The position numbers were made by a program. Source: Mytilus edulis (Eukaryota). From it: a stretch of 64,000 nt of DNA. Location of the stretch: the NCBI RefSeq assembly GCF_963676685.1, contig NC_092344.1, positions 22,134,001 through 22,198,000 on the forward strand, in the 5' to 3' direction. Positions within the stretch are counted from its first letter, which is position 1; every line of letters begins with the position of its first letter. Below, in pieces: positions 3,001-30,000 of this stretch.

Positions 3001-6000
3001 GACAACAACCCGACAATAGAGAAGACAACAGCAGAAGGTCACCAACAGGTCTTCAATGCAGCGAGAAATTCCCGCACCCGGAGGCGTCCTTCAGCTGGCC
3101 CCTAAACAAATATATATATACTAGTTCAGTGATAATGAACGCCATACTAAACTCCAAATTTTACACAAGAAACTAAAATTAGAAATAAAACAAGACATAC
3201 AAAGGCCAGAGGTTCCTGACTTGGGACAGGCGCAGAAATGCGGCGGGGTTAATACATATTGTTTGCAAGCCTATCAAGTAAAATATATTGATCATTAATA
3301 ATATTTCGTGTTTTTTTCTCAAAACGAATTCATAATACCACAATACAGGAAGAACCAAATATATCGGACTGTAAAAAAATCCTTAACCATGCAACTAGAA
3401 GCATCCGGCTCCTCCATACAAAAATAGACACATTAAAACGTTTAAACCCGCTGCATTTGTTTGCACCTGTCTTAAGTCGGGAACATGTTGTTCAGTGGTA
3501 TTCGTTTGTTGATGTGGTTCATAAGTATTTATCGTTTTTCGTATATACTAGACCATTGGCTTTCCTGTTTGAATGGTTTAACACTAGTGATCTTGGGGAC
3601 CTCTATAGGTGTGAATCAAGGCTCCGCGTTGAAGGCTTGCTTTGACCTGTTATGATTTACTTTCAACAAATTGTGACTTAGATGGAGACTTGTCTCATTG
3701 GCACTCATATCATATTTTCTCATTTCTCTGACATAAACAAAAACTAAAAAGCAAATATCACATGACCAAGATAGACTGACTTGGTACAAACACACACTGT
3801 GATACACTGGTGACACTGAATGTTACACAAAATAAAGCATCTTTTCTTTTTCTGTGAACATGTTTAATAAATATTGGCCGTAAGTTTTGCTGTTTCATAC
3901 TCGTTTCAACTACATTTATCTCATCCTGTTTCTTCGCTGTTGTGCGCTTTCTGCATACAGTATAATAAAGAACAGGAAGCTATATAAAACCATATATGGA
4001 AAAAATCCGTTCGCTATTATCATTATGGAAAATGTATATCCGCACCAAATTAATGCCATTACAGACCGACTCCGGCATTCAAATATTCCCAACAAAGTTT
4101 CTTGGATTTCATAGATCCAATTTCGGAAAATTTCTACAAATCCAACAAACATCGGTCTGCGCTGCTGTCGATTCCAGACAACCAAACGATCCAAGTTGTC
4201 CATCAGATCACTGTTTGAAGAAGTGTCCGAAAAAGAGTCTGATTGCTCTGAAAAATCATCACCATTAATTCTTCCATTGAGAGATTCTTCACTTCCATCG
4301 AACTTAGGAAATGAAATGGCGTCGATCCGACAAGGCAGCCGACTATCTTCCTCGACAGAAACATCCAGATCTACTTCCGAAACTGACCTATCGCTTACTT
4401 GTTCCGACATTGAGTCATCGCTTTGTGTAGCAATAGACCGAATAGCTACGTAAGCTTCATCCTGAAACTAAACAAAATAAAACTTTTAATAATTTTCATT
4501 AAAATTCTTTCCTGACTCAATAATTTGGTAAATATTGATTTATCAAGTTGTAGCTATTTCTATAAATTCATATTTGGTCAGAAATTCATACACGATTTCA
4601 TAAAAAAAACTATTATTATTTTAGGATCAACAAACTTTTCTCAAATCTAATTTACTCTAATCTATGAAAAAAATATTTACCAAGAAGCAGAAGCAGTTGG
4701 TTGTAAGTTTTGACGTAAGTTCATTTGTGAAATTGGTTTTTGATTTAAGACTTGACGTAAGTGTGATCTTAGACTTACGATGTTTTGTGAAATTGGCCCC
4801 AGGAAGGAAGGAGGTTCCGGGGAGTTAGAACCTCTTTTACAATCAATGCATTTGAATTGGGACACATGGTTAGAACACATTTTTAATTCGTTCATTTTTT
4901 TGTCCATAAATTAGGCCGTTAGTCATTTCGTTTGAATTGTTTTACATTTGTCATTTCGGGACGGTCATTTCGGAGCCTTATATAGCTTACTAGCCGGTAT
5001 GGGCTTTGTCCATTGTTGAAGGCCGTACGGTGATCTATAGTTGTTAAATTATGTGCAATTTGGTCTCTTGTAGTGAGTTGTCCCATTGGCAATCATACCA
5101 AATCTTCTTTTTTATATTTATTCTGGGTCGGAATCTCCCTTTTAAAAAGGTGGATCTGCCCCTGAGAAGAGGATTTTTAAAAGTCGGATGGGGAGGGGGG
5201 ACACGCGCTCTTATGGAGATACATAAATAATTAATGAATATACCTTATTTATGACCCACTCAAAACGTTAAATAGTTCCCCCCTGTAGACATTGCATTTT
5301 GACGATATCTTAAAAGTGCATTCTATACATTAAGTGTTTTATATATGCTAGTATATATCTATTTCACAAAGTTATAAGTTATTGTGTCTTCGGGAGTATA
5401 CATGTTACCTACATCATTCTTTGATATTCAGAGGTAATGTATCGAGATCTAAATGCAGATGACATTTCATAAAAATCTGATAAATGATTTAATAATTTGA
5501 ATATTAAATTATAGAGAAAAAAAACATTTTTTTTTTTTTTTTAAACATATATATTCATTTATTGCTGACCATTTCTGATTTCCAATAGATTTGTTTTTAT
5601 ATTGACGCCTTTTACTTTATTTGCTGTAAATGTGTCTTACCTTTTTATCTTGTTCACGCCAGTTGTCAACAAAATCTTGAATAGAATAATTGACGTGCAA
5701 TCGCCTGTTCAAAACTGATGAAACTAGTGTCCTTTTTCGACATGTCGGACAAGAAAACTTCAATCTTGGGAATGGACATTGAGGAAGTTGTTCTGTTGTC
5801 AGTCTGGCAAGATTTTTTAGGCAGCTAAAATTGAGAAAGACAATTTGTTTTTGAACATATTGAAGGGAATAAAATATTTCTTTTTTACATATATAGAGAC
5901 AATCCGAACTTGACAAGCAAGTTTATTGGTGACTGTAAGTGCTTGTGGGATTACAAATCCTATAATTTCGTTTCACATATTTGTTATAATGAGCATTTAT

Positions 6001-27000: not shown

Positions 27001-30000
27001 AAATCTAAATATTTTGACACACTATCAATACATCCAAACCAACACTTTTTATTCTAAAGTAAAAGGGGAATAATATGCAGTTTTGTAATAGTACGGAAAT
27101 GACAGAAAGAGGTACTTTTTTTGTCAAACGTTTAAAGAATGAAAATAAAGATTGAATTAGGTATTTACAAATATTACACTTTTTGAAAAACACTTATTCA
27201 AAGTAATTTTCGAGTATTGTAACTTACTTGAGACAGAATGTATGACCGCAAGGCAAAACTGTCGGTAGGTTGTAATATTCCCAACATATTCCACATTTCA
27301 GCAAATTTACTATATCTTGATTCAGAGTAACCGGGGCTACGTTCGGACGGAGTGAGGGATCCATTTCCGCAATCGAAACAACGCGACTGAAAAAAAAAAT
27401 GCCGTCCGAACAAAACGTCCTTTGTTATGAGTTGGCAACTATCAGCGTCATAGGAGCTCTAAGCGACGCAACAAACCCGGATGTTAGGCAAGATACACGA
27501 GCAAGCTTACGTTTCTAAAAACAATGATGGTGAAAACCATTCAAATACTTTAACTATATATAAAATCAAAATTGAGAATGGAGATGGGGAATGTGTCAAA
27601 GAGACAAAAACCAGACAAAACCCCATGTAACTGTTATATGTGCCACATGTGGAACAGGATCTGCTTTCCCTTTCGGTCAAGTTTTTTTGTAGGATTCTTG
27701 TATCTAAGTCTTTGGTTTTTCTATGTTGTGTCTTGTGTACTGATATTTGTCTATTCATCTTTTTTCCCTTTTTTCCCTTTTTTGCCATTTTCGTTGTCAG
27801 TTATTTTCGATCTACGAGTTTGATTGTCCCTCTGCTATATTTCACCCATCTTTTATAACTATACTAGTCAACAAAAGAAACGATACACGACTTTTTTCAA
27901 ATTAAAGATGAAGTTTTCCGTTTATAGGACCAATATTGAAGGTAGTAATACTTAATGACCATAGAAATATAAATCCGTTTAATAATTTTTTTTTGTTGCT
28001 TTCATGACGTCATTTGGCGAAATTTAACTTTTTTGACAAAATTTACATAAAACGACATTTTTAAAAACATAACTTCCAACTAATGCTGCCAACCTCTCAT
28101 TTAAAGGTAAAGACAATGTTTGCCATCAATTCTTTTTAAAAAATCATACAGTTTGTTCGTTTATTTGTTTTTGACAATAGACAATACTTTATTAATAAAC
28201 CTCAGACACATAGGTGTACACGTATACACATGTTTATACTCAATACATTCAAACTAAACATAATAATGCTACATACATGGTAAAATATAGCAAAATGTCA
28301 ATTTACAAACTACCATAACATTCAACTCAAAACAGACTAACATAAATCACAAGTATCGTATAAGAATTTTTAAAAATATTGCTAAGTTTTTGTAAAGTTC
28401 TACATGACATTTGTAAAGCGAAGTTCAGCCCCACAAAAAAATCGTTAAAACATTATCAATTGATTTACCTGTAGACATGCAGTAGGTGTAAACTTAAAGT
28501 GAATTTAAAAAAAAACGGTAAAAATCTTAAAACTAATCCGAAAGGTTCCAAATTTACAGTGTGTTGTTTCCATATCTTAAGCATTGATTTGAGACGAAGA
28601 TTTTTTTTTGTGCATTTTTTGAGATTTAAAAAAAACACTTTTTTTTACCAAAAATTAACAATATTTCAACCCATTAGTTACATCATGAACTTATCTTGAT
28701 TAGCATATTGGATGATTTTAAACAAATTTGAAAATTCATTTAGTACTGAAAAAATTGTGTGTCGATTTTTTATCCAACTTTCCGAAAAAATAATTTGCAC
28801 CCTATGATCGTTTACACAGAATTTAGTTACTTTTCGACAGGTTTTGATTTTCATTATCATATGTGCCGGCCATACATTGCAAATGAAAGCTTTATAAAAA
28901 AAAAAGTGTATCTAATTTTGTTTTATATTTTAAAATACTTTTTGATAAATTTTATTTCAAAGTCGTGTATCGTTTCTTTTGTTGACTAGTATATGTGCAG
29001 ATAAGTAGAAAGAATTGGAAAACAAAAAGATACGGGTCTGCAATTAATGATTTAAGGATACTATACATAGAAGAAATAAAAAGAAAGGAGCTTTTCTATT
29101 AACTTCAAGTCTTGCTCCTCGTCGCGATATAAATAGTCGTGATTTAAAGCATTCATCAATCAATCAATCAAGCAATCAAGCAATCAAGCAATCGATGCCG
29201 TATAGAACCCTTTTTAAGGATTAAATTTACCTCAGAATTATCGGAAATATCAGTGTAATGCAATATCTGACAGAACATAAATTGAATTCTAGTTGATCTG
29301 TAGTTATGTTTGAAATGGATCTAAGATAACTTTACCTTTATAAAAGACTAATACTTTTGTTTTATTAGAATAGTGAATACGTATACCAGGAAAGGTTAAA
29401 AATTCGGATCAAAATTTCTGAAATATGAATGGGTTCGCAATCAGGTTAATTTATCATATAAATGTGTGTCATGCGTCAGTGTTACGATAAGGTGCAGATA
29501 TAGTATACCTGACTTTCTTTCTCGCGCTACTACAGAAATTTAACTTCGGCTAACACGATGTGTGATACTTTTAAAGCGGAATTTAAGCTTAAACATTTCG
29601 GATTTCCATGCTCAAAGCCCGAGGCTTTATATACATGTCAGGTATGTGCTGATTTTTCTCTTAAACTGTTTCTTCCTATATTGTGTGGTATTATTCACCC
29701 ACGTAGTAGATATAATTGTCGTATGAATTTCGTCATTTTGTCATTTAATATATTTGTGCGGTTTGAAAGATGAAATGGGAAAAAAATATTTTTTTAAGAA
29801 AAAAAAAGTATTAGTTCGTTTTAGGATTATATGTTGTTTGTTTTTCAAAGTAGATTTTTTGGTCTTTTGCTTTTTTTTCTTCCTTTTCGCCTTTAATATT
29901 ATTCATATATTTTTTTTATAAAATGGTAGCCAAGTTCTGTAATCACTTGTTTTAAACTGCTCCAAGAAACTCCCACAGTTAATATGACACTGGCAGTGAA

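What the first reader, a model, noticed from the sequence alone, without database searches (positions are those of the whole stretch)
3916..27364. Two B-box-less TRIM-type RING paralogues with identical exon frame but swapped third exons (membrane anchor vs coiled coil)
Seen: the genes at 3916-6167 and 23559-27364 share strand, 3-exon layout, a phase-2 intron inside the RING (after CGH.FC) and a phase-0 intron before the tail. Both have an expanded loop before CPxCR and the post-RING (L/V)HVNY helix motif. Exon 3 is unrelated between them: acidic linker plus hydrophobic C-terminus in one, coiled coil plus N/Q/T-rich tail in the other. Known: the RING plus downstream xNxxL helix resembles TRIM N-termini, which normally continue into B-box and coiled coil; no B-box Cys/His pattern is present here. 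Inference: a lineage-specific modular E3 family in which a RING cassette is re-targeted (membrane vs cytosol) by exchanging the last exon. The ORF track misses exon 1 of both genes in the correct frame.
Basis: partly seen in the sequence, partly recalled or inferred. Interest (0 to 1): 0.68.

Follow-up and report, generated by a model that had tools for sequence, protein, structure and literature searches.

The report
Two old B-box-less RING ligase paralogues
Two neighbouring mussel genes encode related small RING ubiquitin ligases, one with a membrane anchor and one soluble; they belong to two conserved but unstudied subfamilies and do not look like a recent, lineage-specific exon swap.

Summary
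Both minus-strand genes have three exons, GT-AG introns, a phase-2 intron at the same RING codon and a phase-0 intron after the post-RING helix. A public Mytilus edulis protein matches gene B's exons exactly. Exons 1-2 are homologous: profile comparison gives 99.7%, E 8e-26, and the alignment ends at the exon 2/3 border. The tails do not align. No B-box was found. The nearest solved RINGs are TRIMs.

Gene B has at least 14 closer relative clusters that share its own tail, while gene A ranks 98th in its hit list. Gene A has its own family, including an oyster protein. Trees join the two families into one RING clade. They are therefore old paralogous subfamilies, not recent sisters. An exon exchange is not shown: a short motif at the start of exon 3 is shared. 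Membrane versus soluble targeting is plausible but inferred. Structure and complex predictions could not be obtained.

The parts
6046..6167 (-). Gene A exon 1: ATG at 6167, N-terminal helix and the first half of the RING up to CGHSFCT, plus 2 nt of a split Ser codon
   Evidence: DNA reading; translation; half-RING Pfam matches, E 3e-6; exact substring 1-40 of P0007
5641..5824 (-). Gene A exon 2: second half of the RING with a 23-residue loop, CPTCR (5751..5737), and the post-RING helix with LHVNY (5700..5686)
   Evidence: maps to P0007 residues 42-102 with 1 mismatch
3916..4467 (-).
4417..4440 (-). Gene A motif RSIATQSD. S at -4 and Q at 0 are invariant in 12 of 12 family sequences. Candidate LC8-type strand motif.
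   Evidence: Invariant S113 and Q117 in alignment A2; alignment; LC8 position rules read in PMC6607443. Binding is inferred only.
3952..4062 (-). Gene A hydrophobic stretch of about 37 residues (P0007 238-274) with an invariant F-x-P-x-M in the middle. Predicted membrane anchor, possibly a helical hairpin.
   Evidence: Kyte-Doolittle maximum 1.87; invariant W243, Y246, F257, P259, M261, Y264, I271, Y273
27228..27364 (-). Gene B exon 1: ATG at 27364, N-terminal helix and the first half of the RING up to CGHTFCL, plus 2 nt of a split Lys codon
   Evidence: exact substring 1-45 of P0017
25520..25718 (-). Gene B exon 2: second half of the RING with a 24-residue loop, CPNCR (25642..25628), and the post-RING helix with VHVNY (25585..25571)
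   Evidence: exact substring 47-112 of P0017
23559..23996 (-). Gene B exon 3 including the stop: DAATNTD motif, heptad helix, N/Q/T-rich region, conserved DPAILS motif
   Evidence: exact substring 113-257 of P0017
23973..23993 (-). Gene B motif DAATNTD at the start of exon 3. It aligns with the gene A motif.
   Evidence: motif found in 17 of 20 full-length A and B family members, 35-44 residues after the RING
23838..23960 (-). Gene B helix with a/d heptad pattern F-I-I-L-I-V-R-V-A-I-L-A (P0017 125-165). It contains the family block SV(V/L)NDA...I.E(L/I)R.
   Evidence: Heptad register score 7.9 against 3.4 or less for the other six registers; conservation
23622..23639 (-). Gene B C-terminal motif DPAILS, conserved across the B family
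   Evidence: The pattern DPA[IVL][IVLM]S is in 12 of 15 full-length B-type proteins and in 4 of the 6 B-type fragments

Best explanation
These are two real, intact, three-exon genes of Mytilus edulis or a very close relative. Both encode small RING-type E3 ubiquitin ligases from one TRIM-like RING clade that lacks a B-box.

Exons 1-2 encode the shared catalytic cassette. It is a C3HC4 RING with an unusually long second loop of 23 or 24 residues, flanked by an N-terminal helix and a C-terminal x(H)VNY helix. By analogy with TRIM RINGs, the cassette should bind an E2~ubiquitin conjugate and self-associate through the flanking helices.

Exon 3 sets where each protein sits and what it meets.
- Gene A (285 aa) has an acidic, serine-rich linker and a strongly conserved hydrophobic stretch of about 37 residues with a central F-x-P-x-M and a basic end. 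This should hold the ligase on a membrane with the RING facing the cytosol.
- Gene B (257 aa) has a six-heptad helix, a low-complexity N/Q/T region and a conserved C-terminal DPA(I/V)xS peptide. It should be soluble.

The two genes are old paralogues. Each belongs to its own conserved subfamily. In the trees the A-type branch sits among the B-type branches, so the membrane tail is probably the derived state.

Shown here: gene structure, homology of exons 1-2, absence of a B-box, family membership, hydropathy and heptads. Inferred: ligase activity, dimerisation, localisation, and the direction of tail change.
For: Gene models:
- Canonical splice sites and phases, read from the DNA.
- Exact or near-exact agreement with P0017 (NCBI 'E3 ubiquitin-protein ligase SH3RF2-like [Mytilus edulis]', 257 aa) and P0007 (285 aa).
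- P0007's longest contig is 980 nt, too short to hold the 2.25-kb gene, so it is taken to be a spliced transcript.

Shared cassette:
- Exon-wise BLASTP gives 52% over 25 residues for exon 1 and 31% over 35 for exon 2.
- The family profile comparison gives 99.7%, E 8e-26, over 93 columns, A 12-104 against B 17-112.

TRIM-type RING:
- The B profile hits TRIM2/TRIM3 at 53 bits, E 3e-13, and the top 14 hits are all TRIMs.
- The top 12 hits of the A profile are all TRIMs.

No B-box:
- 0 of 17 B-family and 0 of 12 A-family sequences match it.
- 0 pattern hits in six frames of the window.

Separate subfamilies:
- phmmer of P0017 against 1.84 billion representatives gave 1064 hits at E<=1e-3 and 25 at E<=1e-10.
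- Ranks 3-5, 7, 11-16, 18, 19 and 27 are full-length proteins that match through the RING, the helix and the start of the tail.
- A-type clusters come at ranks 29, 32, 83, 98 and 113.
- The A family shares the anchor with invariant residues and includes Saccostrea cucullata LOC134272045. Mytilida and Ostreida are different orders.

One clade:
- The quick tree of 98 single-RING rows puts all 21 A and B rows in one branch, SH-aLRT 98.
- The careful tree of 92 rows gives the A clade 100/99 and A plus one B subclade 98/93.

Tails: hydropathy, heptads, conserved blocks.

Role of the flanking helices in TRIM RING dimerisation and activity: passages of PMC7752041.
Against: - In the careful tree the smallest clade holding all A and B rows has only 84/85 support. 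It also takes in two other rows, P0059 and P0151.
- The AU tests reject neither A+B as one clade (p 0.274) nor B alone as one clade (p 0.199). The nesting of A inside B is therefore not established.
- The trees rest on 91-92 columns and on the top hits of one query. 63 of 161 stored proteins were left out of the first tree for having no RING or more than one. Six long-branch rows were also dropped from the second.
- The organisms of nearly all relatives are unknown. The age and range of both families are therefore only bounded by mussel versus oyster for A and by two Mytilus species for B.
- For gene B I hold only an annotation model, not a transcript.
- The M. coruscus model P0018 skips 21 residues of the helix.
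- Membrane anchoring rests on hydropathy alone.
- Ligase activity and dimerisation are untested.
Confidence: 0.7

Rival explanations
1. A recent, lineage-specific tandem duplication produced two sister genes, and one of them then took a foreign third exon, re-targeting the same RING cassette.
For: The genes share strand and lie 17.4 kb apart. They have the same exon count, the same intron position and phase inside the RING, and the same phase after the helix. The profile alignment stops at the exon 2/3 border, and the tails alone do not align (Prob 0.35%, E 0.17).
Against: The two proteins are only 28% identical over the cassette. Gene B has closer relatives with its own tail at 33-46% identity. 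Gene A's protein ranks 98th of the 150 listed hits. The oyster A-type protein scores higher against gene B (64.7 bits) than the mussel gene A protein does (54.3 bits), which is not expected for recent sisters. The A-type anchor is conserved in an oyster. A motif at the start of exon 3 aligns between the families in 17 of 20 members.
Confidence: 0.1
2. No exon was ever exchanged. Exon 3 diverged in place after an old duplication. It kept the short motif at its start, while the rest drifted into a membrane anchor in one copy.
For: The motif [S/D]-x-x-[T/C/S/V]-[Q/N]-[S/T/N]-[D/E] lies 35-44 residues after the RING in 17 of 20 full-length members and is aligned by MAFFT. A 16-residue match, F.N.I.EIQ..L.GIF, links the two Mytilus tails (63% identity, E 0.001).
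Against: Profile comparison of the tails alone finds nothing. By eye, the 16-residue match is not kept in other members of either family. The shared motif is too short to prove homology.
Confidence: 0.15
3. The two genes are unrelated RING genes that lie side by side by chance. The shared intron positions are a general feature of many RING genes in this genome.
For: RING domains are short and trees from them are weak. The AU tests are not decisive. Intron positions of other RING genes could not be examined, because no eukaryotic genome collection was on hand.
Against: A and B rows group together with SH-aLRT 98 among 98 RING rows. A plus a B subclade gets 98/93. All 21 A and B RINGs have a second loop of 22-26 residues, against a median of 16 in the others. 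The first non-B protein that matches gene B in a single stretch is an A-type protein (rank 29).
Confidence: 0.04

Closest known systems
TRIM2 / TRIM3 RING domains (solved chains 8ams_C, 8amr_A, 8a38_A, 7zj3_D)
   Same: They are the best solved matches to both family profiles: 53 bits, E 3e-13 for B and 38.8 bits, E 7e-9 for A. The alignment runs through the RING and into the helix that follows, with LQNNFF aligned to x(H)VNY.
   Different: The aligned TRIM2/3 chains have a gap of 10 residues where A and B carry their long second loop. TRIM proteins continue into B-box and coiled coil (abstract of PMC7752041). No B-box is found in the A or B families.
TRIM13 / TRIM59 (class XI TRIMs with a C-terminal hydrophobic region)
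   Same: Like gene A, they combine a TRIM-type RING at the N-terminus with a membrane region at the C-terminus. A review passage says they have no obvious domain apart from the hydrophobic regions (PMC4021871). I recall that their RINGs also have a long second loop and a VNY/VNF helix. This is recalled from memory and comes from no call. The Atlas's best look-alike of gene B's protein is an arthropod cluster auto-named 'TRIM59-like' (score 0.89, a lead only).
   Different: As TRIM-family members they would carry B-box and coiled coil, which is general knowledge and not checked here. Gene A has neither. A table in PMC3503706 lists this subfamily as 'Vertebrates'.
SH3RF2 (the name NCBI gives gene B's protein: 'SH3RF2-like')
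   Same: An N-terminal C3HC4 RING.
   Different: Pfam finds only RING models in P0017 and no SH3 domain. That SH3RF proteins carry SH3 domains is my own knowledge. The name appears to reflect RING similarity only.
RNF135 (solved chain 8g7t_B)
   Same: It is among the good solved matches: 29.6 bits to P0007 and 34-35 bits to both profiles. From my own knowledge, not checked here, it is a TRIM-like RING plus coiled-coil protein without a B-box, which is the same kind of layout as gene B.
   Different: It is much longer (432-residue chain) and, from my own knowledge, carries a C-terminal domain. The B-type TNT and DPAxxS motifs were not compared with it.

Membership tests
RING-type E3 ubiquitin ligases (C3HC4) | Eight zinc ligands in the order C-x2-C ... 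C-x-H-x2-C-x2-C ... C-x2-C | tested here: met
   Both genes carry the full pattern across exons 1-2. On P0007 and P0017 the Pfam models zf-C3HC4, zf-RING_UBOX and zf-C3HC4_4 score above or near their cut-offs.
RING-type E3 ubiquitin ligases (C3HC4) | E2-dependent ubiquitin transfer | not testable with these tools
   This needs a biochemical assay.
TRIM / RBCC family | TRIM-type RING at the N-terminus | tested here: met
   The top 14 solved matches of the B profile and the top 12 of the A profile are TRIM RINGs.
TRIM / RBCC family | One or two B-box zinc fingers after the RING | tested here: not met
   zf-B_box matches 0 of 17 (A3) and 0 of 12 (A2) sequences at E<=0.01. There is no B-box pattern in six frames of the window. 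The control P0019 does match it (E 1.3e-9).
TRIM / RBCC family | Long coiled coil after the B-box | tested here: inconclusive
   Gene B has one heptad helix of about 45 residues. Gene A has none evident. Structure prediction failed.
SH3RF family (name given by NCBI) | SH3 domains after the RING | tested here: not met
   Pfam finds only RING models in P0017.
Class XI TRIMs (TRIM13/TRIM59) | RING, B-box, coiled coil, then a C-terminal membrane region | tested here: not met
   Gene A has the RING and a C-terminal hydrophobic stretch but no B-box. Direct sequence comparison was not possible.
C-terminally membrane-anchored RING ligases | Hydrophobic segment near the C-terminus long enough to enter a membrane, with the RING on the N-terminal side | tested here: met
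   For gene A the Kyte-Doolittle 19-residue maximum is 1.87 at residues 256-274, with windows above 1.6 from residue 238. The stretch is conserved in all 12 family sequences. Gene B has no window above 1.6.
LC8 (DYNLL) client proteins | An eight-residue strand motif anchored by T-Q-T, with a polar residue at -4, a large residue at -3 and D/E/P at +2 | tested here: inconclusive
   Gene A's RSIATQSD fits 7 of 8 positions of the rules read in PMC6607443 section 9, with S instead of T at +1. S at -4 and Q at 0 are invariant in the A family. Gene B's VDAATNTD has N at position 0 and a small residue at -3. Binding is not testable here.

The most novel reading that the evidence does not exclude
The A and B families together would form an undescribed, widely conserved clade of TRIM-like ligases that dispensed with the B-box. 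Instead they would place a short LC8-type strand motif directly after the RING's C-terminal helix: S-x-x-T-Q-S/T-D/E in A, D-A-A-T-N-T-D in B. Binding of the dimeric hub LC8 there would clamp two chains together and switch on the RING dimer. The A branch would then have replaced the soluble tail with a conserved proline-centred hydrophobic hairpin, giving a membrane-bound or lipid-droplet-bound version of the same switch.
Probability: 0.12. Interest if true: 0.55.

Novelty: new member of a known kind. Interest (0 to 1): 0.3.

Why it matters
The finding gives correct gene models and a better description than the database name 'SH3RF2-like' for one mussel gene. It also defines two uncharacterised RING ligase subfamilies by simple hallmarks:
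- a long second RING loop;
- the VNY helix;
- a TQS/TNT motif;
- then either a conserved hydrophobic anchor, or a heptad helix plus a DPAxxS peptide.

It is a clean example of one catalytic cassette carrying different targeting tails, with intron positions that coincide with the limit of detectable homology. That is useful for annotating the many RING genes of bivalves; a table in PMC8382680 lists RING and B-box orthogroups as expanded in bivalves. In itself it is not surprising, because RING ligases with varied tails are common. The candidate LC8 motif is the only element that could lead to something new.

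Tried and rejected
- **Tails compared alone.** Local hhalign of 14 A-type against 17 B-type tail sequences gave Prob 0.35%, E 0.17 over 11 columns. I therefore do not claim the tails are homologous. The 16-residue BLASTP match between the two Mytilus tails is not kept in other family members and is left as unexplained.
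- **ESM Atlas.** The exon 3 translation of gene A is not held. The searches with P0017 and P0033 gave only scores below 0.9 and generic RING or TRIM clusters. These are leads, not evidence, and gave no taxa for the families.
- **Cluster look-up for names and organisms of ten B-type relatives.** The organisms remain unknown.
- **Structure prediction of both families.** I have no models and ran no fold search.
- **Complex prediction of a gene B homodimer (residues 1-175, two copies).** The job was never accepted: queue full, and no usable answer. There is no verdict of any kind.
- **Text search for five family peptides in the paper library.** 0 papers.
- **Word-based search with residues 1-115 of P0017.** It found only 3 proteins among 8 candidates, too few to be useful.
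- **Name 'SH3RF2-like'.** Rejected, because there is no SH3 domain.
- **My loose B-box pattern flagged P0023**. Pfam finds no B-box in any of the 17 B-family sequences, so this was a false positive.
- **PAM2 match.** It occurs in 1 of 17 B-family members (E 4e-4) and is treated as a weak lead only.

Full report
**What is in the sequence.** The window has no N. In six frames it holds only two RING first halves and two CPxC[RK] motifs, all on the minus strand at the two stated loci.

Gene A, read from the DNA:
- Exon 1 is 6167..6046 (122 nt, phase-2 donor).
- Exon 2 is 5824..5641 (184 nt, phase 0).
- Exon 3 runs to the TAA at 3918..3916.

Gene B, read from the DNA:
- Exon 1 is 27364..27228 (137 nt, phase 2).
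- Exon 2 is 25718..25520 (199 nt, phase 0).
- Exon 3 is 23996..23559.

All four introns are GT-AG. In both genes the first intron splits the codon for the second x of the C-x-x-C pair that follows C-G-H-x-F.

Exons were translated and searched one by one. For whole-protein work I used public proteins that the searches returned.

**Support for the models.** The exon 3 search for gene B returned a 257-aa NCBI protein, 'E3 ubiquitin-protein ligase SH3RF2-like [Mytilus edulis]' (P0017), from a 126-Mb contig. The three gene B exon translations are exact substrings 1-45, 47-112 and 113-257 of it. The window is therefore M. edulis or something very close.

The exon 3 search for gene A returned a 285-aa protein (P0007), whose cluster has 11 member sequences and a longest contig of 980 nt. 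A 980-nt contig cannot hold the 2.25-kb gene, so I take it to be a spliced transcript. The gene A exons map to residues 1-40, 42-102 and 105-285 with 0, 1 and 2 mismatches.

**How alike the two genes are.**
- Exon 1 against exon 1: 52% identity over 25 residues.
- Exon 2 against exon 2: 31% over 35 residues.
- Exon 3 against exon 3: only a 16-residue match.
- The public full-length proteins: 28% over 103 residues, 54 bits.
- A profile of 12 A-type sequences against a profile of 17 B-type sequences: 99.7% probability, E 8e-26, over 93 columns. The alignment ends at A 104 / B 112, which is the exon 2/3 border.
- The tails compared alone: nothing (Prob 0.35%).

The second RING loop is 22-26 residues in all 21 A and B RINGs, against a median of 16 in 178 other RINGs among the hits.

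**No B-box.** Pfam finds only RING models in P0007, P0016, P0017 and P0018. It finds no B-box in any of the 17 B-family or 12 A-family sequences. A B-box protein, P0019, served as a positive control. B-box patterns are absent from all six frames of the window.

**Relatives.** phmmer of P0017 against 1.84 billion representatives gave 1064 hits at E<=1e-3, 25 at E<=1e-10 and 5 at E<=1e-30.
- After the Mytilus orthologue come full-length proteins of 227-590 aa that match through the RING, the helix and the start of the tail, at 24-46% identity.
- They share gene B's hallmarks: a TNT(D/E) motif, a block SV(L/V)(N/D)DA...I.E(I/L)R, low-complexity sequence (polyQ in some), and a C-terminal DPA(I/V)(L/V/M)S peptide.
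- Gene A's own protein is at rank 98 (44.9 bits). Other A-type clusters are at ranks 29, 32, 83 and 113.
- Nine proteins with several RINGs rank above the first A-type hit, but their scores are summed over repeats. The first non-B protein that matches in a single stretch is A-type.

The A family (P0007, P0016, P0047, P0050, P0130, P0101 and eight partial sequences) shares the anchor, with invariant W, Y, F-x-P-x-M, Y, I and Y. It includes Saccostrea cucullata LOC134272045. Mussels and oysters belong to different orders.

**Trees.**
- A quick tree of the RING plus 32 residues for 98 single-RING proteins puts all 21 A and B rows on one branch (SH-aLRT 98). 63 of 161 stored proteins were left out because they had no RING or more than one.
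- A careful tree of 92 rows, with six long-branch rows also dropped, gives the A clade 100/99 and A plus one B subclade 98/93. All A and B rows fall inside a 23-row clade with 84/85 support and two intruders.
- AU tests reject neither A+B as one clade (p 0.274) nor B alone as one clade (p 0.199).

The two families are therefore each other's nearest kin among the proteins sampled. The idea that A arose from within B is suggested but not proven.

**The tails.**
- Gene A: 25 acidic against 10 basic residues in the first 110 residues of exon 3. It has a hydrophobic stretch with a Kyte-Doolittle maximum of 1.87 and ends in QQRRNRMR.
- Gene B: no hydrophobic window above 1.6. One register gives an unbroken a/d pattern over about 45 residues.

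At the start of exon 3, 17 of 20 full-length members carry an aligned motif 35-44 residues after the RING. It reads RS(I/V)(A/G/S)(T/C/S)Q(S/T/N)(D/E) in A and D(A)(A/S/G)(T/V)NT(D/E) in B. In A the S and the Q are invariant. Measured against the LC8 rules in section 9 of PMC6607443, gene A's RSIATQSD fits 7 of 8 positions. Gene B's version has N in place of the key Q. This is a lead only.

**How it most likely works.** Both proteins should be E3 ligases whose RING binds an E2~ubiquitin conjugate. The helices before and after the RING correspond to those that form the dimer interface in TRIM RINGs. Removing or mutating those helices abolishes activity in TRIM32, TRIM25 and TRIM5alpha (passages of PMC7752041). 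Gene A would sit on a membrane through its C-terminal hydrophobic stretch. The invariant central proline suggests a hairpin rather than a single span. Gene B would be soluble, pair through its heptad helix, and use the DPAxxS peptide to meet a partner. All of this is inference.

**Comparison with what is known.** The nearest solved RINGs are TRIM2/TRIM3, TRIM56, TRIM25 and TRIM5. The genes fail the TRIM definition because they lack a B-box. The database name SH3RF2-like is not supported, since no SH3 domain is found.

I recall that TRIM13 and TRIM59, the membrane-anchored TRIMs, also have a long second loop and a VNY/VNF helix. That recollection comes from no call and could not be tested. A table in PMC3503706 lists that subfamily as vertebrate only. 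A text search for five family peptides found no paper.

**Limits.**
- No eukaryotic genome collection was available, so paralogues and intron positions in other species could not be counted.
- Supplements of papers were closed.

**Verdict.** It shows ordinary biology: two old paralogous RING ligase subfamilies with different tails, not a recent lineage-specific exon swap.

Noticed in passing
window 12605-16804, + strand: Seven copies of a thrombospondin type 1 repeat exon (88-nt core, 65-77% identical to the reference copy) lie between the two RING genes on the opposite strand. Pfam TSP_1 matches 13531-13902 at E 7.5e-5.
   Followed up: partly
window 6377-6748, + strand: A 123-residue coiled-coil ORF lies head to head with gene A, with about 210 bases between the two start codons. 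This suggests a shared promoter region. Pfam gives only a weak HAP1_N match (E 1.4e-4).
   Followed up: partly
window 24792-25240 (intron 2 of gene B); copies at 35532-36002 and 37873-38345: A foldback, MITE-like element with 97-nt inverted arms (95% complementary). Two further copies in the window are 94-97% alike.
   Followed up: no
window 4462-4469, - strand: Gene A has two acceptor AGs 6 nt apart. The transcript-derived protein uses the upstream one, which adds FQ. The oyster protein starts its tail without FQ.
   Followed up: partly
window 25578-25579, - strand (inside gene B exon 2): The Mytilus coruscus model P0018 lacks 21 residues (VNY...SFK), as if CAC|GTGAAT inside exon 2 were used as the donor. 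The same GT is present here. This is either alternative splicing or a model error.
   Followed up: no
window 23691-23732, - strand (P0017 residues 201-214, WASRLFLPVGYPTQ): This block is conserved in the closest B-type relatives. In the alignment it lines up with P0021's segment (…EFVPRSY), which, read by eye, carries a PAM2-like LNVNQPEFVP. One of the 17 family members, not identified by the tool, matched Pfam PAM2 (E 4e-4). This is a possible PABP/MLLE-binding peptide.
   Followed up: no
window 32876-33634, + strand: A 252-residue multi-pass membrane ORF matches Pfam Rost (protein rolling stone), E 7e-18.
   Followed up: partly
window 39439-48487, - strand: A BTB-BACK exon (47381-48487; BTB E 4e-20, BACK E 7e-21) and Kelch repeat exons (42536-43108, 42011-42331, 39439-39759). 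Together they look like one Kelch-like adaptor gene.
   Followed up: partly
window 53968-54252, - strand: An exon encoding the C-terminal part of a cyclophilin (Pro_isomerase, E 4e-25).
   Followed up: partly
proteins P0042, P0048, P0049 (hits): Several relatives carry two tandem copies of a RING followed by a hydrophobic segment. This suggests that membrane-anchored, B-box-less TRIM-like RINGs are common and are sometimes duplicated in tandem within one protein.
   Followed up: no
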